From: Octopus vulgaris | Lineage: Eukaryota | Direction of reading: 5' to 3' | DNA: 64,000 nt | NCBI GenBank assembly: GCA_951406725.2 | Contig: OX597821.1 | Coordinates: 5,146,001 to 5,210,000 of the forward strand | Shown: piece after piece, positions 1 through 58,527 of the stretch | Numbering within the stretch: the first letter of the stretch is position 1 | How the letters are laid out: every line of letters starts with the position of its first letter | Program-made: the position numbers and the translations under genes | Notes under the pieces: generated by a model | What the model was told of the DNA's origin: nothing | Seen by the model: the letters and a program-made list of their open reading frames with translations, nothing else | Databases searched by the model: none

Positions 1-182
1 AAGTTTGTGTCACCAGCCCCCTTCCACCCGCGTGTAGCCAAGACAAAATGCTGCGGTCATTTACTGGGATAAAATATGGTTATCAGTAATAATAAAGGGT
101 GAAATTAATTAATTTGGAATAATTATCAATTACACCAAGTAGATTTCGGCATGTAAAAGCCCCATTCGAGGAAAATTTAAGT

Positions 183-416
183 AATACTAATTAATTAAGG
201 GTTTAGCAACGAATTGCCTCACCAACACACCGAATTTAGAAATAGCAGTCAAAGAGATATAGCTATTCCTTCTACTTGTCTGTGTTTGCCTTTTAAGTGC
301 TGTGTTTTTACTGAGATCCCCCTTTTAGTAGAAGGAATAGCTATATCTCTTTGACTGCTATTTCTAAATTCGGTGTGTTGGTGAGGCAATTCGTTGCTAA
401 ACCCTTAATTAATTAG

Positions 417-420
<4 letters not shown>
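183..420. repeat. Perfect fold-back (94-bp arms 183-276 / 327-420, 50-nt spacer) ending in (TA)n; probable Penelope-like inverted terminus
   Basis: aatactaattaattaaggg...ttccttctact is mirrored by agtagaaggaa...cccttaattaattagtatt, followed directly by a (TA)n tract. Confidence 0.85.
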
Positions 421-15659: not shown

Positions 15660-16909
15660 TACTATGGCTGCCCCCTCGTTATCGAGTATGGCCATTGCAC
15701 GAAGCTTAACTGTTACTGGTACTGTGATCGAATGTGACTTTTTAGCCCAGCCAAAGATCTACAATGTCTTGTACAAAATTGGCAACTAAAACCTTTACTG
15801 GTAATAGCCGGCTGCAGTTGTAACTGGGCTTCATGTACCTTTGCATGTCGTTTAAGTCCTCCTGCCGAATTACACTCTCTTCCACATGCCCGACACATAT
15901 GATTAATATGGTGTGTTACGCCACAACCAATGGCCAGGTTGTCACTCATCTGTCTCGTTTTATGACCACGAAGATGACTCATGAGTCCAGCTTTACTGAG
16001 GTAGGGTCTTGCACGGACATTGCATGTCAGAATCAAAGGAAGACCCTTCCATTCTGAAATTGTAACAGCGATGCCCTTCCTAATATCCCTCCTTACTTTC
16101 TCATGTACAACTCGATATTTCTCAAACGTGGCTGTCCCCTCATGCACAATCCTTCTCCAACTGCTACGATCAATAGCTATGTCTTCCCATGTGTCTGGAG
16201 AGATGCAAGCATCTCTTAAGGAAGCCTTCAGCAAGTCCTTATACCTCTTTTTTGGTTTATGTGGAGGTCGTTCTCCTTTAGCTAACTCTCCATAAAAGAG
16301 TTATTTTGGCATCCTTGAATCCTTCATTCTGACCAGATGACCACTCCATCTGGGCCTTTGCTTTAAGACGAGAGCTTCTATACTTTCACAACGAGAGCCT
16401 TCGAGTATTTCAAAATCACTGATGCGGTTCTTCCACTTAATGCCATAGATCCTTCTGAGGCACATCTGATGTAAACGTTCTAGTTGTTTAAGGTAGTATC
16501 GATATGTGACCCACGTCTCGCAGGCATAGAGAAGAGAAGGGAGCACACATGCCTTTTACACCTTTATCTTTGTCTTTCTGCATATGTCTCGCCGACTCCA
16601 GAGGCGCTTTTCTAGCCTTCCGAAAGTAACACTTGCTTTCCTAATTCTATATGGAATTTCATCATCCACATTGCCATATCTATTAATATTGCTTCCCAGG
16701 TAGACAAACCGATCGACTACATCAAGTCGTTTACCATTCACATAGATATTTGGTACACTATACTGCTTACTAGGGGCAGGTTGATGGATGACAACAGTTT
16801 TCTTGAGATTGACTGTCAATCCTAAGGCAGTGCAATCATCAGAGAATGAATTCAAAATGTGTTGCATATCAATCTCCGTGTGCGCTACTAGCTCACAATC
16901 ATCAGCATA
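15660..16909 (-). mobile_element. 5'-truncated RTE-like LINE: RT C-terminal part plus three C2H2 zinc fingers (pseudogenised)
   Basis: YADD, FVYLGS, LLYACETW and RWSGHLVRM motifs; fingers CNVRARPYLSKAGLMSHLRGH, CRACGRECNSAGGLKRHAKVH, CQFCTRHCRSLAGLKSHIRS; in-frame stops. Confidence 0.9.
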
Positions 16910-16971
16910 CATGCATACATGCATACATACATACATGCATACACACATACATACATACATACATACATACA

Positions 16972-17002
<31 letters not shown>

Positions 17003-17880
17003 GTGCATATATACATACAGAGAAGTGGGGACATTGATGTCCAAGACTTGATACTGTCACTTGTTACAGACTTCGACCTATCATTTCCCTGCGACCCTCT
17101 ACGAATACAGTTTATCCATTAAATGCTTCCTCAGTGCCAATTATGCAACATTAGATGAACATGAAACAAATCTGATCTTTGAAAAAACCTTTTACTCCAA
17201 GACCTGGTCTTTTTTCTTTAAACATAACTAAACAGAAACATATGGAATCAGTATTTTCGTTCGAGATCTAACAAAATGTCTATAGGCAATCTGTACTTAA
17301 CATGCATCACCCATTAATCCAATTCTATATCTTTTGAAATATTAGGTCTTCCATTTTTTTTTCATAAAACTACAGTAAAAGGAATATTGAAATGTTTCAG
17401 GTTTGCTAGTGAGCATGTTTTTCTGAGGTTTGCTTTCTGTACTTCCACTAACCTAGTTAAACATGCTCTTACGCCTCATTTCTCTAATGCCATAGTCATA
17501 AGAAAATAGCGCCAAAGACTATTGTCGTGCTCTCCATAGCAACTGTGAGGAAATGAAGACGTTAACCCTTAATCTTTGTATTTGATCCCTATGCTGGCGA
17601 CTGTATGGATGCCATAAAAGCACTCAAGTATTAGATTGTGGTGGAACACCGCAACACAGATTACTGGGGATCGTGCCTGCCAACCATTTTCGCCTACTCA
17701 ACGTTTCCGCACATTATTCTGTACTCATTAGCGGTTTAGAGTGTTTCCCACAAATATTCATTCAAGTCTAATATATATAATTATACACATATAGAAACAT
17801 GTAAACACACACACACATATATCTTCATACATGTATGCATACATATATATATGTACATATATATATATATACATGTATAT

Positions 17881-18942
17881 AAGCAGAGAGAAGAGAGCTT
17901 CATTTGATCCGATGTGTTCATCAAGGTCAGATGACGAGATGGGAATAACATGTTGTTGATAGGAAGATAAGTTGGGATGAGATGTGGAAGTGAACGACAT
18001 CTCGGCTGAGTTTCCTGATTCGTTCATCTTATGATGTTTTGCCATCATCTAGTAAGATGGAACGTCTTAGAGAATGACATCTGCAAATGTGGAAAAGTCG
18101 GTACACTAAAACATATTCTTTCAAACTGTTCATTAGCATTGAACAGGTACACATGGAGGCACAACTTGGTCCTTAAGGTTATCTTCAATGCTATAAAGAA
18201 CCAAATTCATCTCAACAACACTGAGGAAAAATCGTTAAAAGTACCATCAAGAGAGTTCATTACCTTCGTGCGACCAGGTCAGCAGATCCGTTTCAAGAAG
18301 AAGACCAAGAAACTTCCTGAGAAAAATGAAAAGTGGAACGGCTATTGGGAGGTAACTGCAGATTTACTTGGGTGCCAGGTTTTCTTTCCCATCCCAGTTT
18401 CGGAAAAACCAGATATTTTGATGTGGTTTGAAAGAAAGAAAGTTGTAAATATAGTCGAGCTAACGGTTCCTCACGAAGATAATATGGACGCCGCTCGAGC
18501 TCGAAAATTAAACCGTTATGAAAACCTCCTCGAGGAATGTGAAGACGCAGGCTGGAAAGCGGAACATTTTCCTATCGAAGTCGGATGTAGAGGGTTTGTA
18601 GGACACAGCGTGAGACGACTGTTGTTATCGTTAGGCCTAACTCATCGTAAAGTCAATACCACCATGACTGATATCCAATCTACAGTGGAGAAGGCTAGCC
18701 ACTGGATTTGGTTAAAAAGAGACGATGAGCGATGGCTAGAAGTATATTGAGTTCTTCATAACCAGCTGATCTAGCAAGCGGGGCCTCATATCAGTGTGGG
18801 GGGCCGGTGCGCATTGATGCCGTCGAGAGGTAGGCCCCGTAACGGCGCACATTCTCTCCTGATGACCCCATACACTTGCTAGCTTCCGATATACGGAGCT
18901 TTTAACTGGTAGCACTTGCATGTGCAAGTTGTTGGCAAGACA
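17881..18942 (+). mobile_element. 5'-truncated HERO-type LINE (zinc knuckle plus restriction-like endonuclease) in (TA)n
   Basis: ORF 18031-18750: CKCG..LKHILSNC, YTWRHNLVL, KPDI, IVELTVPHE, K..RY, FPIEVGCRG, WIWLKR; TA repeats on both sides. Confidence 0.88.
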
Positions 18943-20329: not shown

Positions 20330-20890
20330 ACTCTCTGCATGCAATTAGACTCGGAAAGTTCGTGAGGAACCCATTGACCCAATTTGCTGACTTTTCCGAT
20401 AGCACACAGGTCTCAATGAATGGTTGAATGACCAAATCCAAGCTTCTCTGCTAGTTCCTCAACAGTTACGATGAGATTTTGTTCCACCAGGGTTTTCAGT
20501 ATGTCCTTGTCGAGTTCTACAGATCTTTCAGGATGAGGCTCGTCTTCTAGGCTGTAGTTTATGGCTCGGAATTTCTGGAACCACCATTGACACTGCCATA
20601 CGCTTATTGTCCAATCCCCATATACTGCATTAATATTTCTTGTACTTTCCGTTGCGTTGTTGTCTTTATTGAACTCATAAAGCAAAATATGCCAAATATG
20701 CTCCTTTGTTACTTCCAATATAGCTTTGAAAAAAATAGCTGTTAAAATCGAAATGCACTCTTCAAAACTTGCACTATGAATAAGGACAAGATAAAATTAC
20801 TACCTGCTTTTATAGCAAGTTAATATAAGTAGTTTATCCCATTCCCCTCTGACTTTTAGTTCAAGCTGTTGAAAAAACCGCATTATTATA
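20330..20890 (-). mobile_element. Mariner 5' fragment (transposase N-terminal HTH; ORF 20413-20718)
   Basis: EHIWHILLYEF..WFQKFRAINYSLEDEP..TVEELAEKLG. Confidence 0.85.
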
Positions 20891-30117: not shown

Positions 30118-30152
<35 letters not shown>

Positions 30153-30155
<3 letters not shown>

Positions 30156-30790
30156 AATTAGTAAATAAATGGCACAACTAAGTACCGATATTTACTGGAA
30201 ATAGCGAACGTAAAAATACGACGCTAATGTGTAGCTTCACCGCGTATGTATTAGTAAAAATGCGTGTGTGCAACAAAATAGAGAAAAAAAACCGTCTTAC
30301 CTCCAGGGAGAACATCTGAAAGATGAAACACCCGGAAAATGGATAATGTGGTACCTGCAGGTTTCAGGTTTTGCAAGATATGTCTCTCACCCATATTTTG
30401 CTTTACCTTCTTCAGCCAAACATATACCAAGACGAAATCTACGATGTTACCACATTAATACTAACACACTCGACTGAAATACGGAACGCTAACAGTACGA
30501 GAAACGGTGAAGAAGTTTCAAAATATCAGTAATGCAATACAAAGTATTGCCTTCCAGTAAAAAGTAGCCCGTGAGGGAAAAATACACAAATTAGTAAATA
30601 AATGGCACAACTAAGTACCGATATTTACTGGAAATAGCGAACGTAAACATACGACGCTAATGTGTAGCTTCACCGCGTATGTATTAGTAAAAATGCGTGT
30701 GTGCAACAAAATAGAGAAAAAAAACCGTCTTACCTCCAGGGAGAACATCTGAAAGATGAAACACCTGGAAAAGGATAATGTGGTACCTGG
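30153..30790 (-). mobile_element. Retrozyme/PLE-like partial tandem (433-bp unit, about 1.5 copies) in (TA)n
   Basis: 30153-30358 is repeated at 30586-30790; contains a hammerhead; no meaningful ORF. Confidence 0.8.
30347..30422 (-). ncRNA. Type I hammerhead ribozyme
   Basis: tgg-CTGAAGA-aggt..gcaa..atatg..catat..ttgc..acct-GAAACCTGCAGGT-A-cca; palindromic stem III, GUA site. Confidence 0.8.
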
Positions 30791-31510: not shown

Positions 31511-32283
31511 ATATATTATATAAATACATATATATGTATTATATACATATATATATATTAATATATATAAATAAGGATAAGATTGTTATTTAAAATACCG
31601 ATCATATCAAGTGGCTCGCATGGGAATAGAAACCTCCAAAGGTAATAATTATTATTAAAGTTATAATTAAGGGTATCTAAAAGATACCACCATGCTAGAT
31701 ATAGCAACTAAAGCTTAACTCCGAAACCGCATTAAATGTTCATATAGCACCAGGAGAGAAGACAAAATTGACCAAATAAACTAGCAAAATTTACTGGTTA
31801 ATTCCAGATCCAGGATTTCTGACTTTCTGATTTCTGATACATACACATATATATATGTACATATTTACATATATTGTATATATATATATATATGTTTGTG
31901 TGTATGTATATATATATATGTATGTATATATATATATATACATATTTATATACATTGTATATATATATATATATACATATTTATATATATTGTATATACA
32001 TAGACGTGTGTGAGGGGGAGTACAATATACATGCAAATATGGCATTCGGAGCTAAAATTGTGCTAATATAGGATTCTAAAAATACTTTCAATGTGTTACT
32101 TCGAATTTATTTTCAATTATTTGGGAAAATAATATTCGAGGTGTTGCCACAAATTTAATGTGAGTTTTGGAAACAATTATGCGCTTATCATAACTACTGA
32201 GTACACAGTCGTTCTATGCGGCTGTTTGCGAAGGTTTGTGCGTGTATGCTTGTGTTATACACACACACACATATATATATATG

Positions 32284-35247: not shown

Positions 35248-35756
35248 AAAATTAATTAAGGGTAGAAATTGATATTAGTCAATTAAAACCAGTGGTCTAG
35301 CATATTAAAAAGAATCCGAAGATTAAAATATTTATATATACCAATTAAGGACTGAATACGAAAAGTGGACAGTCAACATGCTAGATATAGACGTCAAATC
35401 GCCATTCTCCAAAAAGATTATGTTCTCAAATAAAACTTAGCACAAAACCGAAGCAATAAACAAGACAAATGAAAATATACGAAATAAAATAATTACCCAT
35501 GTTTTTGCATCTAGTCCAGCAAATTGTATTCATAACAGACCATGGTGATGAAGTTACAGTTATCCTTGCGGATAATAATAACCGAAACTGATCAGTACAT
35601 GGGTAATTATTTTATTTCGTATATTTTCATTTGTCTTGTTTATTGCTTCGGTTTTGTGCTGAGTTTTATTTGAGAACATAATCTTTGTGGAGAATGACGA
35701 TTTGACGTCTATATCTAGCATGTTGACTGTCCACTTTTCGTGTTCAGTCCTTAATT
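35248..35756. mobile_element. Hammerhead-bearing fold-back element in (TA)n (same family as 46738-47250)
   Basis: 35343-35502 is inverted relative to 35597-35756. Confidence 0.8.
35540..35602 (+). ncRNA. Type I hammerhead ribozyme (C3G variant)
   Basis: ccatg-GTGATGA-stem II-GAAACTGATCAGT-A-catgg. Confidence 0.7.
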
Positions 35757-40400: not shown

Positions 40401-40514
40401 ACATTTATTTACAACCAGGACGATGGATGAGGGGAACAATACAAAGACAGACATAAAATGGGGGGTAATACAGTTCTAAATTTAAGAGAAGAGGAATTAT
40501 GTAGAAAATATTTA

Positions 40515-40660
40515 GTTTATTTACATTCAACGAATATTTATCCTCATCTTGTTTGTTGTTAACACAATGTTTCGGCTGATATACTCTCCAGCCTTCATCA
40601 GGTGTCTTAGGAAAATTTTGAACCTGGGTTCTCATTCCAAAGGTATTTTCAATGTTGTTG

Positions 40661-40719
<59 letters not shown>

Positions 40720-40910
40720 TCACTTCTTGGAATGGGACTTGGAATTTTGGGGTTAGTAGTAATAATAATAACATTGAAAAATACCTTAGGAGTGAGAACC
40801 CAGGTTCTAAATTTCACCAAGACACCTGATGAAGGCTGGAGGGTATATCATCCGAAACGTGTTAACAACAAACAAGATTAGGAAAAATATCCGTCGAATG
40901 TAAATAATAT
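40515..40910. mobile_element. Inverted pair of PLE-like units around (ATT)n, each with a minimal hammerhead (40561-40606 -, 40821-40863 +)
   Basis: gacac-CTGATGA-aggctg..cagcc-GAAAC(a/g)T-T-gtgtt; each copy has a small lesion. Confidence 0.75.
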
Positions 40911-45972: not shown

Positions 45973-46700
45973 CGGCTTCCCATACAGTTTCCGTCTACGA
46001 AATTCACTCACATGGCAGTTGTTCTGGTCCGCCATAGTAGAGGGTTCGTCGTGCAGTTTGATTGAACCCCAAAGTACAGACTGCATAGCGAGGTTCTTAA
46101 CCGCAACAGCATGTCTGCGTCTTTGGGAAGCGAATTGTTATATCCCATCAATTGAGATCGGGTAATTCATGGCAATCAATTAAGGGGAAACTACCTCGAA
46201 ATCATACTTTTCAAGTGGCTGCTTCTGTATAGTTGTTTTACTGTATTGTTCATCATGTTACCCACGCATAGCTTTTGTACGGTAAGTCGGAGGTTAGTTA
46301 GGTCTTGTCTTCGTATTTATAAGAGAAAACAGTAGAATTGTTATTCCGTTGTTCCAAAATTTTGGGATTTCTCTGGATGAGGCAAACCTTGCAATATTTG
46401 TCGATTTGCTTTAATAGAGATCCTTCTGTGTAAAAATCGGTATTTGTCTTCTTCTCATATTTGTTCTCTTCACCAACTTGATTGTGTGTGCAAACTGAAA
46501 TGGTGTACATTCAAAAGAAGACAGTTTTCTGGCTTCATGATATTGGTTTAAGATATGTGTGTGCATAGAGAGAAAGATAGATAGATCAATATGTAGGCAG
46601 GTGTAGATATACATATACGTATATATACACTTAGGAATGTATATATGTATATATATGAATATATGCATATATATATGTATATATATATATATGTATATAC

Positions 46701-46735
<35 letters not shown>

Positions 46736-46737
46736 TA

Positions 46738-47250
46738 CCAATTAAGGACTGAACACGAAAAAGTGGACAGTCAACATGCTAGATATAGACGTCAAATCGT
46801 CATTCTCCACAAAGATTTTGTTCTCAAATAAAAATAAAATTCAGCACGACCTAAAGCAATGGATGAGACAAAAGAAATATACTAAATGGAATAATCACCT
46901 ACGTACCGTACAGTTTCAGCTATTAATATCACAAGGATATCTGTAGCTTCGTCAGCGTAGTTTGTTATGAGCATAATATGTTGTACTAGATGAAAAACGG
47001 TACCGGAGTCCCGCATGCAAAAAGTACGACCTATTACGTTCGGATGTATCTTTCAAATGCCTCTACTTTTGGCGCGCTGATAATCGAAAAACCAGCCTGC
47101 AGCTAATAATTAGCAGCAGTCAATTTATCGGTTTGAGAACATATATTTCATATTTAAAAATTAAGGGTAAAAATTGATATTAGTCAATTAAAACCAGTGG
47201 TCTAGCACATTAAAAAGAATCCGAAGATTAAAATATTTATATATACCAAT
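46738..47250 (-). mobile_element. Circularly permuted monomer (about 508 nt) of the 35248 family
   Basis: Starts ccaattaaggactg and ends tatatataccaat, a junction that is internal and contiguous at about 35341. Confidence 0.8.
46899..46960 (-). ncRNA. Type I hammerhead ribozyme, apparently intact
   Basis: ctacg-CTGACGA-agcta..gatatc..gatatt..tagct-GAAACTGTACGGT-A-cgtag. Confidence 0.85.
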
Positions 47251-50046: not shown

Positions 50047-50082
<36 letters not shown>

Positions 50083-50084
50083 AT

Positions 50085-50970
50085 ATAATATAATTCGAGA
50101 CAAAACCACTATTTTGCAAAACAAACGAGGAAAGACTTAATCAATAAATAGATAGGTTGAAGAGGTCCTTTGAATGACCACCGAGGCCAACCAAACTCAC
50201 AACTCTGGATTATTATCTGTGGGGTCATTTGAAATTAGTTGTTTATCAGACACACCCTAGAAATATCGAGGAACTTAAAGAAAGAATTGAAAATAAAGAC
50301 TTAATCAATACATAAAAATATATGCAGGGTGAGGCAAGAGTCACATAGGAGTTAATTTATATTGTTTTAGACGTCAAATTTGTTCTAATATTTTCTTACT
50401 TGCAGGAACAATTTGGACGATGTAACATGAGTGGAAATCTAGCAAATAGATAGGTTGAAGAGGTCCTTTGAATGACCACCGAGGCCAACCAAACTCACAA
50501 CTCTGGATTATTATCTGTGGGGTCATTTGAAATTAGTTGTTTATCAGACACACCCTAGAAATATCGAGGAACTTAAAGAAAGAATTGAAAATAAAGACTT
50601 AATCAATACATAAAAATATATGCAGGGTGAGGCAAGAGTCACATAGGAGTTAATTTATATTGTTTTAGACGTCAAATTTGTTCTAATATTTTCTTACTTG
50701 CAGGAACAATTTGGACGATGTAACATGAGTGGAAATCATGGGAGTAATTTTATAACATGAACATTTAATTTATTAGTTATTTAATTGTTAAATGTGCTGT
50801 TCAGGGTCCTCTCCTTCTTTTTCATAACATATTTCAATTAAGTCTTTCCTTGTTTGTTTTGCAAAATAGTGGTTTTGTCTCGAATTATATTATATAATAT
50901 TTTACTATAAAATTGGATTTAATCCTAAATCTGATTTTCTCCTGTAAATTTGCATTTATTCCCTAATATT

Positions 50971-50975
<5 letters not shown>
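50085..50975. mobile_element. Chimeric insert: PLE-like inverted ends enclosing a tandem (298-bp) inverted copy of the neighbouring Tc1-derived element
   Basis: 50085-50142 is inverted vs about 50837-50895; 50151.. repeats at 50449..; pieces match 51059-51160 (direct) and 51215-51495 (inverted). Confidence 0.75.
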
Positions 50976-51015
<40 letters not shown>

Positions 51016-51034
51016 GGATATATATATATATATG

Positions 51035-51488
51035 CAGGGTGAGGGAAATGTCGAACACCATGGGAGTAATTTTATAACATGAACATTTAATTTATTAGTT
51101 ATTTAATTGTTAACTGTGCTGTTCAGGGTGCTCTCCTTCTTTTTCATAACATATTTCAATTTTTTGCCAGCGTGATTCGTTCACACGTCGGACGGTTTCC
51201 TCTGCTATTTTACTGAATTTATTTTCAATTCTTTCTTTAAGTCCCTCGATATTTCTAGGGTGTGCCTGATAAACAACTAATTTCAAATGACCCCACAGAT
51301 AATAATCCAGAGTTGTGAGTTTGGTTGGCCTCGGTGGTCATTCAAAGGACCTCTTCAACCTATCTATTTGCTAGATTTCCACTCATGTTACATCGTCCAA
51401 ATTGTTCCAGCAAGTAAGAAAATATTAGAACAAATTTGACGTCTAAAACAATATAAATTAACTCCTATGTGACTCCTGCCTCACCCTG
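51035..51488 (-). mobile_element. Non-autonomous Tc1/mariner deletion derivative
   Basis: TIRs cagggtgagg / cctcaccctg; minus strand encodes PPRPTKLTTLDYYLWGHLKLVVYQ..PRNIE. Confidence 0.8.
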
Positions 51489-53467
51489 CATATATTTCTA
51501 AGTTGTTCGCTTCAAAACAACATAGTTTCTTTTCTATTTGTTCTGACTGCACAAGTTACTGATGAATTGTTTTATACAATCTTATCTGATGGTCTCGGTG
51601 CTAGAGATGTGGCTGGGGAATTTATCACTCTATTGGTGATATAAACAAAAATTAATTTTGCTCCAAAATCAAATATGAATCTAACTCTCATGTGATCTAC
51701 CGCAGTATAATTTGTTCTAATACAACATCAACGTCTAAGTGGGTATAAATCTGTTCTACTATAAGCTCATATAAATCAAAGTTGTGTCAGCTAAATACCG
51801 TAGACTGAAACTGTATCGAAGACAAACGACTAAGACATTCCTGATTTTGTGTGGTAAACTTAATGCATTGCACATTTTCTTACCACCACTTCGGTTGTGG
51901 AAGCATTTTAGCGTCGTCCATTTTGCAAGAAGTATATGCTTCACTTCGTTTTGAGATCAACTTCCTTTATCTTTCTGACAAGTCAACAAAGCGATGTATA
52001 AAAAACATGGCTGCTGTTCTACATCAAATAACAATGTCACTAAAAGCTACAATAATACCTATGTGGCATTTACTTTTATTGCTTCGCGACAGGTTGTTCT
52101 TTTCCATTCTACACGAGGTGTTTCAATGGCAACAAAAGATGGTTAGGAATATAAAACTAGCACATATATATCGAGACAGAAAATGAAACAGAATAGTGGA
52201 ATACAAGCCGTCAAGTATTATGCAAAATATTCTGTTCGTTTTCTTTTCCTTTTCAAATGCGATAAACTTGTGAAACATTGCTACGCGTCTGTATTCTATT
52301 CCTACTTTAAATGCAGATAAGACTTGAAGAGATAAGAGTCGTTAGAATTCCTACATATGATTTCATTGTTGCCATTTGTAGTCTCTTCGAAAATATCCTT
52401 TGTTAATCGTTAATTCAGCCAACAATAGAAGAGTCTGTCAAGGAAGGAAGTGATATGAATGTATTCTCTCTGATTGGATGCCAGTCCGGATTAACATTAT
52501 CAATATACTTTAATGTACACACATTAATAGATATCATGATTGATACACAGGCGGAAGGGGTGAACTAGGACCTACAAGTGAGAAATTAATTATTTGGCAA
52601 TGCCCCAATAGATGTCACTAAGTTTATCTTGACTCACCTATCATGTGCCAAAATGTGACTTTCACGTAGCAGGAAAACTAATCTCCCTTTTAAAGACAAA
52701 ATTAAGAAGCCAACCACCGACATACTGCTGTGTGCATTGTATTGACTAATGTGGTTTCTGAGTTATATGAGGTCATCACCAACAAAGACACAGCAAATAC
52801 ATGAATATGCTTAAATAACGAGGCTTTAATATTTGAACAGCAAATTAGCTGACACAAAACTGCAAACTAAGAAGCTGCAGATAACGTATGAAGAATGAGA
52901 TTTGTACTTATATAGAAGGATAAGTCAGTGAAGATCATTGGTGAAGCGTGTTCAGCTCATTATCATTAAATAGTGGATTCAATTCCTGGACAGAGTAGCG
53001 CGCTATGACCTTCAGCAAGCGTGGTGTTTCTTTTCACGTCTACTCGATTGTATATCATTATCAGACGGATGCTGATACAGCCATTCTTTCCTCTAGTTGT
53101 AAGCAGCCGGATGTACAGCTGGATCATAAATGAGGGAAGTAAGGCAATGTGTTTGTCTGCTAGAAGCTATATAGACAGGAAATGTATTTCAAAAGCCGTA
53201 CTCGATTACTGGCCGATGAATAAATGAAATAAAAAGTAATGCGCGAATATAAGTTGCTTCTCTATACGCGAGTAAATGGAAGCAATGTGAAGTCGTCTGA
53301 CTGTGTGTCTCAATATATATATATATATATATATAATGGGCTCTCCCATCGAAGACGACGTATGAGCGTTCAGTATCTGCCAAACGACGTGTACAAATGA
53401 TTTGCTTATAGTGACAATATATTTGGCGTACACACACACAAACACACACACACACACACATATATTT

Positions 53468-54850: not shown

Positions 54851-56984
54851 CATAATCTTCCGAGTTCTTGTACAGTGCTTAAAAATGGAAGGACCAGTGC
54901 AATAAATGTGTGAATTTGAAAGGGGAATTATGTTGAATAAAATCTTAACCTTTTGTATTCAACACAAAGTCAAGAACATTTCAGCAGACACTCATGTGCG
55001 TATATATGCATACATACATATATATATATACATATATATATTCCGAATTTGTGTAAACGTGTATAGAATAATATATCAGTTGAATGAAGTTAAAACATGG
55101 TCTGTTTTTACGTTCTTTTATCGTATCTTTTTAAATTTTTTTACAATGTTGAAGTTAGTTAAACATTAAACAAATATTTTGAAATGTTCATAACCTTCAA
55201 TTAGAGCTTTCATACATTCGTAGTAGTCATCAGATTTCAAAATATATTTAACTGACAGTTAAGTTCTTGACAACTGTAGTAAAATGACTGAATTCTTCCT
55301 TTTTATACCTATTAGAAGGTTCCAACAAGCAGAATTTATGGAATACGGTTTTGACCAATCCATATGCAGCTTAAGCATCACGGTTTGCCAGGTGTGCCTA
55401 TATTACTGGTATAGATCCTGCCTTTATTTTAACCAATCAACTTGCCGTTTACATGTAATCTGTTTATGAATTTATGAGTGAGCAAACTTAGTTGGTTTCG
55501 AACGTTCTTTATTTCAATTGGTGGGAGTCTTCTGTAATTTTTTTATATTCATATGTTGAACATATTTTTTAATCCGCATCATTAACTGGTTGCTATATAA
55601 TTGTCGTTATATTATTCTGTTCAGAACACTGTTTGAACATTTTAATAAACCGTCTTCCTTTTAACTTTCTTCGAGCCTCACTTGTTTCATGTAGTTTTTG
55701 CAAAGGAGAAATTAGAAATATTTTCTGACCACATGTTTCTATATGTTCGCTGAATGGAATTTGGAGGTGAGTAGAATCGTGGATGGTGATGACTCCATGG
55801 CTTGTGCACAGGTGAGATTTAGTGGGGCTGCGATGTTAGTAGATGAATTCTTGGACTGAGATGGTGAAGAAGAATGATTTCCTCTTGCTGGTGAACATAG
55901 TAGTAATAGCGGCAGTAAATGATGATTAAGGTGACCACGACGCCAATCTGATGACGGTTGCCACAACAGTGGGTGCGGTGCAGTGGAGAGAATGTGTCAG
56001 ATAAGCACAGGAGGAAGGGATGGACAACCACAAAATATTTGAGATCAATGGTAGCGTTTCAGTGGAATTTCTTGCTGCAGTTGTTCATTCTGCTGTGGTT
56101 GCCATTGCTGACAAAAACCTGTCTTGGTATCTGTGTTAGTTCGTTTTCAGTTCGTCTTGCAATTTTTGCAGCAACGTCATTCGAACATGTGTGAGCGATG
56201 TATTGACGCCAATCTTTGTCCAGTTGCGTTTATAGTAGACATTAGCCTTTTTGATCCGGATATAGGATTAGTGAAGTAATAACCGATAAACATTTTGTGT
56301 GCATGCATATATATATATATTGGATAATGAGACCATATTGTGTCTTTCTCTTCAGGAAGAAATAGGAAATCCGTTGGAAAAAACAAAAACAGAACAGAGG
56401 CGGAGCAAAACAAATCGAACTAGGCTCCTAAGAGCCCATGGCAAAACTGTTTATCAGTGTATGTTGAGAACCGGTGGCTGAAGAATTTAACGGGTCAGGC
56501 AGCGGTCAATCATGTGGGTGAGGGTGTGTAGATGTTCTTTGTGACCGAGAATAAAGTTCTGACTATTTAAGGAATATTGGATGTTTTATAAGGGACGAGA
56601 AAAAATCTACTTAGAGACATGTGTGTGTATACTGATCTATATATGTGTGTGCTTGCGTAGGTTGGCAAGACCTCCGTCAAGGGGTAGAAAACATTTTTTG
56701 TGTACGTGTGTGCGTTTGATCGCTCGGCTGTCAGTGGCTAAGCCGCTCTACACAATGGCTACTGCAGTAAGAGCCGTTGGGTGGCAGAAAAAAATATATT
56801 ATGTTTTATGTGTGTGTGTGTTCGTCTGAACCTGCCTTGTCAAGGTAACCCCCCGTTGTCAAAAAACCAAGCCCCGTATATCTTACAGGAGTAATTCCCC
56901 TTGCAGTGGTTAATCGTAATTATCTTAAAGGCTATTTCAGAATTTGTTACCAAGGGTTATGTGTGCAGGTATTATTTATAAACG

Positions 56985-57360
56985 CTATTTAAAAGCCAGA
57001 TAAGTGTAACGCCGCCAATGGGGGCATCGAAAAGCCGACTGTAAAAGTCCGTTTACCATCCGGCCTCTGGCAAACAAAATATGGAAGAGTTCGGAGACAC
57101 AAAGGTTGCACTGCCTTCTGCCCCTATCAAATGGGAGGGCCACCGACAAAATTGACCATTCCAGCCTGTAGCTTAAGTTCGTATCCTTCAATCGCCATAT
57201 TAGCTTGCTGAGTCCCGTGGTCTGGCGCTTGTTCATGTCCCGAAAAGTTGCGTAATGATTGGAGACTCGCAAAGCCAATCTTGACGATGAGGCCCCTACA
57301 TAAGTGTAGACATCTGAGTCCGTGTAAACCTTGCATTGGTAGACGGCGTTTTCGATCTTG
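56985..57360 (-). mobile_element. Penelope-like element GIY-YIG endonuclease domain (5'-truncated)
   Basis: KIENAVYQCKV..TYVGAS..R..NH..F..TGLSKLIWRLK..LEWSIL..CNLC..E..CPH; the frame stays open upstream of the listed ORF start. Confidence 0.8.
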
Positions 57361-57684
57361 GAGTTCGCCGACGTGAATCTTATTCTGCTAGGATTAGTTT
57401 CTGAAATTAGAACTGCATCTCATTATTCAATCGGATTTTGGTAAATTGTGCCTTTCGAAACACGTGTAGAATGAAATAAAACGATTTCTGTTCAATCTTC
57501 GTTCAGCTCCATTTCTTCAATTCACCAATAATATTTTAATTTCAATTATCCGCACCAACGCACGGTTGCAACACCATATGGTTGTACCTCCAACGGTGCT
57601 GTCTTCTGCTGTGATTTTTGCTACCAAGGTATCGGTTAAACTTTTGATTAATCTGCTACAAGATTATTCATCTTTCTATTTCAC

Positions 57685-57754
<70 letters not shown>

Positions 57755-57757
<3 letters not shown>

Positions 57758-58480
57758 GAAATACGAAATACGAAAATATAGAAGAATACAAACTCTTTCG
57801 AACAACGTAAGAAACGAATGAAAAATAAGACAAGTAACATAACAATTGACCCTTCATCAGTTGTCGGCTGTTTTATTTACTCTACATTTCGAGCAATTAC
57901 GACAAGATGCGCCTTCGTCAAAATAGTTGCTCCCGCAAGGCAAACTAAATGCAATTTGAGATTTGCGGAGGATGAAAGTTGGTAACAAAAACAGGACAGT
58001 GAAAACAAACAGAAAGTGCTTCTAATCCATAACGAGGTACGGTGGCGAATGCTGGAGGGACAAGCTTTGACAGGAGAGAGACAAGAATGTGTCTTATCTC
58101 TAATTGATTGAAAACAAAGAAACTCAAGTTAGGAAAAGAAAGATGGTTGATGGTCACGTGCAGGCAACGAGTAAAGTAAGAAGCATGAGGAAGAGTGAGG
58201 GACGGATACAGAATGGTGAAAGGGAGAGGAAAAGAATTAGAGAATGGATGAGACAGATAAAAAGGTAACGGGGCGAAGGGGAGATAAAAGGAATTACAGA
58301 AAAGATGAGAGAGGAAACGAAAGGGGAGAAGGAAAGGGAAATAGAATAAAAGACGCAACTGATGAAGGATCGTTTTATGTTACTTGTCTTGTTTTCCATT
58401 TGCTTCTTTCGTTCGCATACAAGTTCGTATTCCATTTTTGCGTGTTTCGTGATCCATGTTGTTTATTTCTATAAGGTTCT
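57755..58480. mobile_element. PLE-like non-coding element in (TA)n with diverged inverted ends bearing CTGATGA
   Basis: 57790-57865 (-) resembles 58355-58430 (+): caactgatgaagg..tatgttacttgtctt; related to 45550-45600. Confidence 0.55.
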
Positions 58481-58527
58481 ATAGCCATATATGCATATGT
58501 ATATTCATATATATTACATATATGTAA

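What the first reader, a model, noticed from the sequence alone, without database searches (positions are those of the whole stretch)
46738..47250. Exactly circularly permuted ~508-nt monomer with an intact hammerhead
This copy begins ccaattaaggactg and ends ..aaatatttatatataccaat. In the 35248 copy these two sequences are contiguous (about 35341). One unit therefore starts and ends at the same point, as expected from reverse transcription of a circular RNA or a tandem multimer. It contains the best-looking ribozyme in the window (46899-46960 -, CUGACGA core, GUA site).
Basis: partly seen in the sequence, partly recalled or inferred. Interest (0 to 1): 0.75.

Follow-up and report, generated by a model that had tools for sequence, protein, structure and literature searches.

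The report
Small Penelope-type hammerhead retroelement copy
This is one full-length copy of a small, non-coding jumping element that carries a self-cleaving hammerhead ribozyme and probably borrows the enzymes of Penelope-type retrotransposons; a circular RNA stage is possible but is not shown, and two related insertions nearby begin almost exactly at the ribozyme's predicted cut.

Summary
The sequence facts hold. 46738-47250 is one 508-nt period with 13 nt of terminal redundancy, its two ends are contiguous at 35341, and a type I hammerhead (HHR) lies at 46899-46960 (-), with compensatory changes against two other HHRs in the window. The permutation argument is weaker than stated. The '35248 copy' is not a permuted monomer but an inverted two-arm insertion. 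All 6 determinable 3' ends of this and three related families fall at two fixed sites beside TA repeats, the Penelope-like element (PLE) signature. A related element at 30149-30789 is a ~433-nt unit plus a 209-nt direct repeat starting 6 nt from its HHR cut; the 35-kb inverted arm starts 0-1 nt from the cut. These fit a linear, longer-than-unit RNA whose 5' end is made by the HHR. Best reading: a non-autonomous, TA-targeting derivative of Hydra-clade PLEs (retrozyme-like monomer). One lap round a circle remains possible for this copy (~0.3). It is a new member of a known kind. Its value is a possible genomic footprint of in vivo HHR cleavage and a conserved helix round the reverse-transcription start.

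The parts
46738..47250 (-). Copy A: one 508-nt non-coding unit plus 5 nt; RNA sense is the minus strand; fixed 3' end at 46738 abutting (TA)n
   Evidence: longest ATG ORF 56 aa even when read as a circle, GC 0.34
46899..46960 (-). Type I hammerhead: stem I 5 bp, core CUGACGA, stem II 5+5 bp with internal loop, GAAA, 10-nt near-palindromic stem III, GUA cut between 46904 and 46903
   Evidence: covariation
46730..46742 (.). Left copy of the 13-nt terminal redundancy (8 nt TA repeat + CCAAT)
47238..47250 (.). Right copy of the 13-nt terminal redundancy; A's 5' end. The flank beyond it has no other match in the window
46640..46737 (.). (TA)n microsatellite at the 3' end of A (inferred target)
46773..46783 (-). 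5' strand of helix P1, which encloses the fixed 3' end (inferred RT start) in junction-spanning RNA
47201..47211 (-). 3' strand of helix P1
35250..35502 (-). Arm X of locus B: starts 0-1 nt from the HHR cut, spans the unit junction (35341), ends at a second fixed site about 89 nt past the first, in (TA)n
35501..35756 (+). Arm Y of locus B: reads through an HHR (35540-35602, core position 3 is G, cut 35597|35598) and ends at the same 3' site as A
30149..30789 (-). Element J (related family): ~433-nt unit plus 209-nt direct terminal repeat (30582-30789 = 30149-30357); HHR core at 30415, cut 30352|30351; 5' end 6 nt upstream of the cut; TA repeats on both sides
1..420 (.). Locus G (distant relative): inverted two-arm insertion with identical 94-bp arms; plus arm ends at the first fixed site in (TA)n; minus arm spans the junction and runs off the window
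31570..31835 (-). Locus H (probable distant relative, weaker evidence): spans the junction, ends at a site-2-like motif in TA repeats; possible 3' half of an HHR at 31807-31819
56985..57419 (-). Context: relic C-terminal GIY-YIG endonuclease of a Hydra-type PLE, the kind of element inferred to mobilise A; no demonstrated sequence link to A

Best explanation
A is one insertion of a small non-autonomous retroelement derived from, and moved by, a Hydra-clade Penelope-like element. Mechanism: (1) a donor with more than one unit is transcribed (inferred). (2) The upstream HHR cuts, probably as a dimer through its palindromic stem III, and gives the RNA its 5' end (structure shown by covariation; cutting inferred from where X and J begin). 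(3) The helper protein binds a conserved multi-branch fold closed by helix P1, nicks a (TA)n target, and primes reverse transcription internally at one of two fixed sites about 90 nt apart (fixed ends shown; binding inferred). (4) The RT reads through the downstream, uncut HHR (shown by A, Y and J). (5) Synthesis ends at the RNA 5' end (J, X), earlier (Y, G), or, for A, at the upstream copy of the start site, most likely because its TA/CCAAT tract matched the target end (inferred). A second priming on the other strand gives the inverted two-arm loci B and G (inferred). No circle is needed.
For: Fixed 3' ends beside TA repeats in 6 of 6 determinable cases: site 1 for A, Y, G-plus and J; site 2 for X and H. 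Inverted two-arm loci at 35 kb and 1-420 match the PLE structure described in PMC8557442. J is exactly 'cut site - unit - repeat to start site', with repeats about 98% identical. 5' ends lie within 6 nt of the predicted cut in 2 of 7 cases, P about 0.015 under a uniform null with a window chosen after the fact. HHR selection: 4 of 20 pairs changed on both sides between A and Y; 7 of 14 among A, Y and J, with 0 of 500 shuffles as high. Stem III is 10 nt from AC to GU; all 26 Hydra-clade rows of File S2 in PMC8557442 have 9-10 nt, and that clade targets (TA)n. The ~190 nt round the start site are 189/194 identical between A and B, against 126/162 for the HHR side (Fisher p 5e-9). P1 sits at similar offsets in X, G and J despite different sequence, with pair probability about 0.9 and background 3, 6 and 7 of 400. 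A Hydra-type endonuclease relic lies in the window. Internal initiation at two sites and AT-rich targets are shown in vitro for another PLE (PMC11167929).
Against: A linear template gives the RT no obvious reason to stop at exactly one unit; the homology explanation needs CCAAT to pre-exist beside the TA target, which is untested. 5 of 7 5' ends are not at the cut (A, Y, both G arms; H lies about 28 nt upstream of a doubtful cut). J starts 6 nt upstream of the cut, not at it. The site 1 to site 2 spacing (89-95 nt) is longer than the 30-40-bp PLE tail, and the HHR lies further from the 3' end than in most listed Hydra consensi. No firm sequence link between A and an autonomous element: tblastn of 150 relatives gave nothing in A, and the decayed HHR-like stretch behind the endonuclease relic is weak (model E 0.4; 2 of 200 shuffles against Y, no signal against A or J). 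P1 in H is not above background (52 of 400), and RNAalifold found no consensus pairs on the MAFFT alignment of the four junctions. In the anole PLE, no RNA-seq reads ended at the HHR cut and cleavage was dispensable in vitro.
Confidence: 0.6

Rival explanations
1. One reading: HHR-cut monomers are ligated to a 508-nt circle (retrozyme cycle). The PLE RT primes at the fixed site, makes one lap, displaces a few bases of its own product and stops, giving A. X would come from the cut linear monomer.
For: A ends 5 nt past the TA tract of its own start, as one lap predicts. The unit folds well as a circle: z -3.7, 0 of 60 shuffles, 63% paired, HHR stems free; J z about -5. The A-only part pairs with the post-cut region (0 of 200 shuffles; 2 of 211 window controls). 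Animal retrozymes make circles in vivo (PMC7229834), and circular PLE templates were proposed in PMC4209133.
Against: The linear fold is equally stable (z -3.7), and 3 of 7 background windows reached z -2.1 to -2.8. J goes past the start site and stops near the cut, where a circle has no end. There is no tandem array of A in the window. [quoted passage not shown] No RNA data.
Confidence: 0.28
2. A is a one-off internal deletion or template switch of a long coding PLE, so 508 nt is not a natural unit.
For: 46999-47140 has no close second copy, and B does not bridge it.
Against: G's continuation aligns to 47250-47090, into the A-only part (score 60, 0 of 300 shuffles; the distal part alone is not significant, 29 of 300). 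The A-only part pairs with both the A and the Y version of the post-cut region (0 and 6 of 200). J shows that short units exist here. No coding remnant was found.
Confidence: 0.08
3. Concerning only the 5' ends: X and J stop near the HHR because the RT stalls at the folded ribozyme, not because the RNA was cut.
For: J starts 6 nt upstream of the cut, at the centre of the stem III palindrome. H may start inside an HHR. Stem III is unstable in the monomer, and PLE HHRs are weak in vitro.
Against: X starts within 0-1 nt of the scissile bond. The RT read through whole HHRs in A, Y and J.
Confidence: 0.3
4. Chance motif or assembly artefact in microsatellite-rich DNA.
For: 8 of the 13 redundant bases are TA repeat; Rfam is silent.
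Against: A relaxed descriptor, fitted to these HHRs, hits A and Y only and 0 of 200 shuffles. Covariation. A and B differ at about 15% of aligned sites, so they are not a duplicated contig.
Confidence: 0.02

Closest known systems
Hydra-clade Penelope-like elements (Craig et al. 2021, PMC8557442)
   Same: (TA)n targeting, HHR near the 3' end with a 9-10-nt stem III, inverted 5'-truncated copies, fixed ends.
   Different: No RT or GIY-YIG ORF; unit about 0.43-0.51 kb rather than 2-3 kb; optional 3' extension of about 90 nt rather than 30-40; no firm sequence match to an autonomous partner.
Animal non-LTR retrozymes (Cervera and de la Pena 2020, PMC7229834; Li et al. 2026, bioRxiv 10.64898/2026.07.22.740005)
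   Same: Small non-coding unit, type I HHR, low GC, self-paired fold, PLE origin proposed; dispersed monomers are common.
   Different: No tandem array of two complete HHR units in the window; 508 nt is above the 170-400 nt of the 2020 paper though inside the 51-972 bp of the 2026 preprint; circles not shown here.
Poseidon element PAc of the green anole (Frangieh et al. 2024, PMC11167929)
   Same: Internal RT initiation at two sites downstream of the HHR in a stem-loop; AT-rich targets; both strands extended.
   Different: PAc is autonomous and its ORF starts in the HHR; its authors saw no RNA ends at the cut, whereas two insertions here begin at or near it.

Membership tests
Type I hammerhead ribozyme | Conserved core CUGANGA / GAAA / UH | tested here: met
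   (A); J also; Y has G at position 3
Type I hammerhead ribozyme | Helices I and II with covariation | tested here: met
Type I hammerhead ribozyme | Helix III formed | tested here: inconclusive
   Probability 0.01 in the monomer; 10-bp self-duplex of -12 kcal/mol as a dimer; all cells paired across three copies
Type I hammerhead ribozyme | Match to an Rfam hammerhead model | tested here: not met
   none among the 150 of 386 rows shown
Type I hammerhead ribozyme | Self-cleavage | not testable with these tools
   indirect only: X and J 5' ends
Non-LTR retrozyme | Tandem array with at least two complete HHR units | tested here: not met
   Within this window only: A is solo, J has 1.5 units with one whole HHR. 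The rest of the genome was not available.
Non-LTR retrozyme | Small, non-coding, GC below 50%, self-paired | tested here: met
Non-LTR retrozyme | Expressed as circular RNA | not testable with these tools
   no RNA data
Non-LTR retrozyme | Loop 1-loop 2 tertiary contacts of canonical HHRs | not tested
   not examined
Autonomous PLE | RT plus GIY-YIG ORF | tested here: not met
Non-autonomous PLE derivative (Hydra type) | Fixed 3' ends with an optional extension | tested here: met
   6 of 6 determinable ends at two sites; extension about 90 nt, longer than the published tail
Non-autonomous PLE derivative (Hydra type) | Direct pLTR or inverted 5'-truncated copy | tested here: met
   J direct; B and G inverted; A itself has only 13 nt
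Non-autonomous PLE derivative (Hydra type) | (TA)n insertion and 9-10-nt stem III | tested here: met
   compared by eye with File S2 of PMC8557442
Non-autonomous PLE derivative (Hydra type) | Sequence shared with the pLTR of an autonomous partner | tested here: inconclusive
   56890-56967 behind the endonuclease relic: E 0.4, 2 of 200 against Y only

The most novel reading that the evidence does not exclude
A is a one-lap cDNA of a 508-nt hammerhead-made circular RNA, and A, B, G, H and J are an undescribed group of TA-targeting mini-elements whose insertions record all stages of a retrozyme cycle run by a Hydra-clade PLE: cut monomer (X), longer-than-unit RNA (J) and circle (A). They would share a conserved RNA junction that fixes where the RT starts. 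That would be direct genomic evidence that PLE hammerheads cut in vivo and that circles are transposition templates.
Probability: 0.28. Interest if true: 0.75.

Novelty: new member of a known kind. Interest (0 to 1): 0.48.

Why it matters
HHR function in PLEs is called unclear (PMC8557442), and no RNA ends at the cut were seen for the one PLE studied in vitro (PMC11167929). Circles as transposition templates are so far a proposal. Here 2 of 7 5' ends fall within 6 nt of the predicted cut, and a covarying helix encloses a fixed start site. With the whole genome, mapping copy ends would test both questions cheaply, and these ~0.5-kb units would be compact substrates for PLE biochemistry. The element class itself is known.

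Tried and rejected
Rfam: no match at gathering score; the E-value scan was swamped by microsatellite hits (150 of 386 rows seen); focused scans of A and J gave only chance rows. Phage collection: no match to A. Coding reading of A: no ORF over 56 aa and no tblastn hit from 150 PLE relatives. Y has an ATG in the HHR core as in PAc, but its frame closes after about 40 codons and A lacks the ATG (read). Retained intron: A, X and Y have a donor-like site at the 3' edge of stem I (46898) and acceptor-like sites at 46749 or about 47202. A pattern fitted to them hit only these 3 copies, but J lacks the donor at that place, so it is a lead only. RNAalifold on X, G, H and J gave no pairs, and the alignment put the P1 strands out of register. 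Outside the HHR, A versus B is too similar to show covariation: of 56 testable pairs, 53 same, 1 kept, 2 broken. The first pair count on the three-HHR alignment used a structure string off by one and is void; one search is the corrected count. A word-index search for longer relatives of the endonuclease relic found none; Pfam did not recognise it or 12 relatives; PDB gave nothing for the longest relative. Names for those relatives could not be looked up. The CUGAUGA-bearing repeats at 40.5-40.9 kb and 57.7-58.5 kb look like other families and were not counted. Unchecked: the rest of this genome, any eukaryotic genome collection, RNA-seq, viral and metagenome contigs. The prokaryotic genome collection was not searched as it is not relevant.

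Full report
Observation. The window is AT-rich, microsatellite-saturated animal-type DNA with retrotransposon and mariner relics. An invertebrate, octopus-like source is my impression from recall and was not tested. Copy A (46738-47250) has a period of 508 nt and 13 nt of terminal redundancy: 8 nt of TA repeat and CCAAT. Its two ends are contiguous at 35341. A strict type I hammerhead (HHR) descriptor gives one hit in the window: minus strand, core at 46955, cut between 46904 and 46903; strong hits averaged 0.01 per shuffle over 100 shuffles.

The ribozyme. A second HHR lies in arm Y at 35540-35602, and a model built from these two found a third at 30338-30434 (rough E 0.006). Between A and Y, 4 of 20 pairs change on both sides and 38 of 39 cells pair (24 of 500 shuffles as high, the limit for two sequences). 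Among A, Y and J, 7 of 14 pairs do so, with 0 of 500 shuffles as high. The fold was therefore under selection in the donors. Stems I and II are stable, but stem III is not in the monomer (probability 0.01); its 10-nt palindrome forms a 10-bp self-duplex of -12 kcal/mol. That fits dimer-dependent cleavage as described for animal PLE HHRs (PMC4209133, parts 1-2 of 4 read). Y has G at core position 3, a change that abolished cleavage in the anole element. Rfam does not recognise these HHRs. Activity is untested.

The 35-kb locus is not a permuted monomer. It is an inverted two-arm insertion between TA repeats. Arm Y is sense on the plus strand, reads through its HHR and ends at the same site as A. 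Arm X is sense on the minus strand, begins at 35501-35502, which is 0-1 nt from the predicted cut (2 nt are shared with Y), crosses the unit junction, and ends about 89 nt further on after a second CCTTAATT motif. The stretch 46999-47140 has no close copy, so the 508-nt unit rests mainly on A. Two indirect supports: a distant relative (G) aligns into that stretch (score 60, 0 of 300 shuffles, though the distal part alone is not significant), and the stretch pairs with the post-cut region of both A and Y (0 and 6 of 200 shuffles).

Related families in the window. J (30149-30789, minus) is a ~433-nt non-coding unit plus a 209-nt direct repeat. It starts 6 nt upstream of its predicted cut, at the centre of the stem III palindrome, and ends 199 nt after the downstream cut in (TA)n. 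Its similarity to A is architectural; the sequence score is marginal (2 of 200 shuffles, out of register). G (1-420) is another inverted two-arm insertion with identical 94-bp arms; neither arm reaches an HHR. H (31570-31835) spans the junction and ends at a site-2-like motif; its kinship is weaker. Counting all seven arms or copies (A, X, Y, G-plus, G-minus, H, J): 6 of 6 determinable 3' ends fall at two fixed sites beside TA repeats, and G-minus runs off the window. Of the 5' ends, 2 of 7 fall within 6 nt of the cut (P about 0.015, uniform null, window chosen afterwards), 1 at the unit boundary (A), 3 elsewhere, and 1 is unclear (H, about 28 nt upstream of a doubtful cut).

A conserved element round the start site. 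The ~190 nt flanking the junction are 189/194 identical between A and B, against 126/162 for the HHR side (p 5e-9). Selection for protein binding is my reading; recombination between subfamilies could also give this. In X, G and J a 10-13-bp helix (P1) encloses the start site at similar offsets with different sequences, pair probability about 0.9; background windows did as well in 3, 6 and 7 of 400. H did not stand out (52 of 400). Inside P1 lie an upstream hairpin, a TAATT motif, the AU-rich start and a short downstream hairpin. RNAalifold did not recover this from a MAFFT alignment, so the claim rests on separate folds. P1 needs RNA downstream of the start site, so priming is internal, as shown in vitro for the anole PLE (PMC11167929, parts 1-2 of 4 read; its text supplements gave no hits for four terms and its figures are not held).

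Likely helper. The ORF at 56985-57419 is a C-terminal GIY-YIG relic (2670 relatives at E up to 0.001). Its longer relatives carry an RT, a DKT motif, a CxCx5C linker and CxxC/CxH motifs. These are the marks given for the Hydra clade, which inserts in (TA)n and carries HHRs (PMC8557442: passages, sections 11 and 15, and parts of supplementary Files S1, S2, S7 seen). All 26 Hydra rows of File S2 have a 9-10-nt stem III from AC to GU, like A, Y and J (by eye). The link of A to this clade rests on architecture. A decayed HHR-like stretch just behind the relic resembles Y only weakly.

Mechanism. Shown: selected HHR fold, fixed 3' ends, TA targets, read-through of the cut site, inverted two-arm loci, a unit-plus-repeat copy. 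Inferred: cutting in vivo, protein binding at P1, identity of the helper, template topology. J and X are what a linear RNA with a cut 5' end and an uncut downstream HHR predicts. A needs a template that continues past one unit, and either topology supplies that. Stopping 5 nt past its own start is natural for one lap round a circle; on a linear template it needs the 13-mer to match the target. I put the linear model at 0.6 and the circle at 0.28.

Comparison and novelty. It works like a PLE-mobilised non-LTR retrozyme (PMC7229834, parts 2-4 of 6 read; bioRxiv 10.64898/2026.07.22.740005, parts 1-3 of 5 read, supplements closed and possibly relevant). It fails the tandem-array criterion within this window, so I file it as a non-autonomous PLE derivative, retrozyme-like monomer. 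Dispersed monomers are reported as common. Seven paper searches led to no report, among the six papers I opened, of PLE 5' ends mapped to the HHR cut or of this junction fold; most listed papers were seen as titles and abstract openings only, and PMC13282606 as four passages. Verdict: real, partly reinterpreted, new member of a known kind, interest 0.48.

Noticed in passing
window 30149-30789 (-): Cleaner example than the finding: ~433-nt unit plus 209-nt direct repeat, with an HHR and a 5' end 6 nt from the cut; recent-looking (repeats about 98% identical).
   Followed up: yes
window 1-420: Inverted two-arm insertion with identical 94-bp arms, a distant relative of A; the minus arm continues beyond the window start and may reach an HHR there.
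   Followed up: partly
window 31570-31835 (-): Probable further relative with a tripled 7-nt motif at its 5' end and a possible 3' half of an HHR at 31807-31819.
   Followed up: partly
window 56985-57419 (-) and 56890-56967 (-): Hydra-type PLE GIY-YIG relic followed about 20 nt later by a decayed HHR-like stretch with an intact 5-bp stem I; weak similarity to Y.
   Followed up: partly
window 40470-40660 (-) and 40760-40910 (+): Two divergently oriented copies of another repeat with decayed minimal-HHR motifs, flanking an (ATT)n tract; likely pLTR relics of a different PLE family.
   Followed up: partly
window 57689-57877 (-) and 58345-58526 (+): Inverted pair, 72% identical, each with a CUGAUGA half core but no GAAA partner and ending in TA repeats; half-core motifs are noted for Naiad PLEs in PMC8557442 File S1.
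   Followed up: partly
window 46749-46898 (-): Possible retained spliceosomal intron starting at the 3' edge of HHR stem I in A, X and Y; not seen in J.
   Followed up: partly
window 50070-51503: Young complex repeat: a 298-nt exact tandem duplication with several 95-98% inverted segments.
   Followed up: no
window 15713-17056 (-), 18019-18750 (+), 20413-20796 (-): Relics of a non-LTR retrotransposon (RT and C2H2 fingers), a probable restriction-like endonuclease domain (my reading; no Pfam hit), and a mariner transposase HTH.
   Followed up: no
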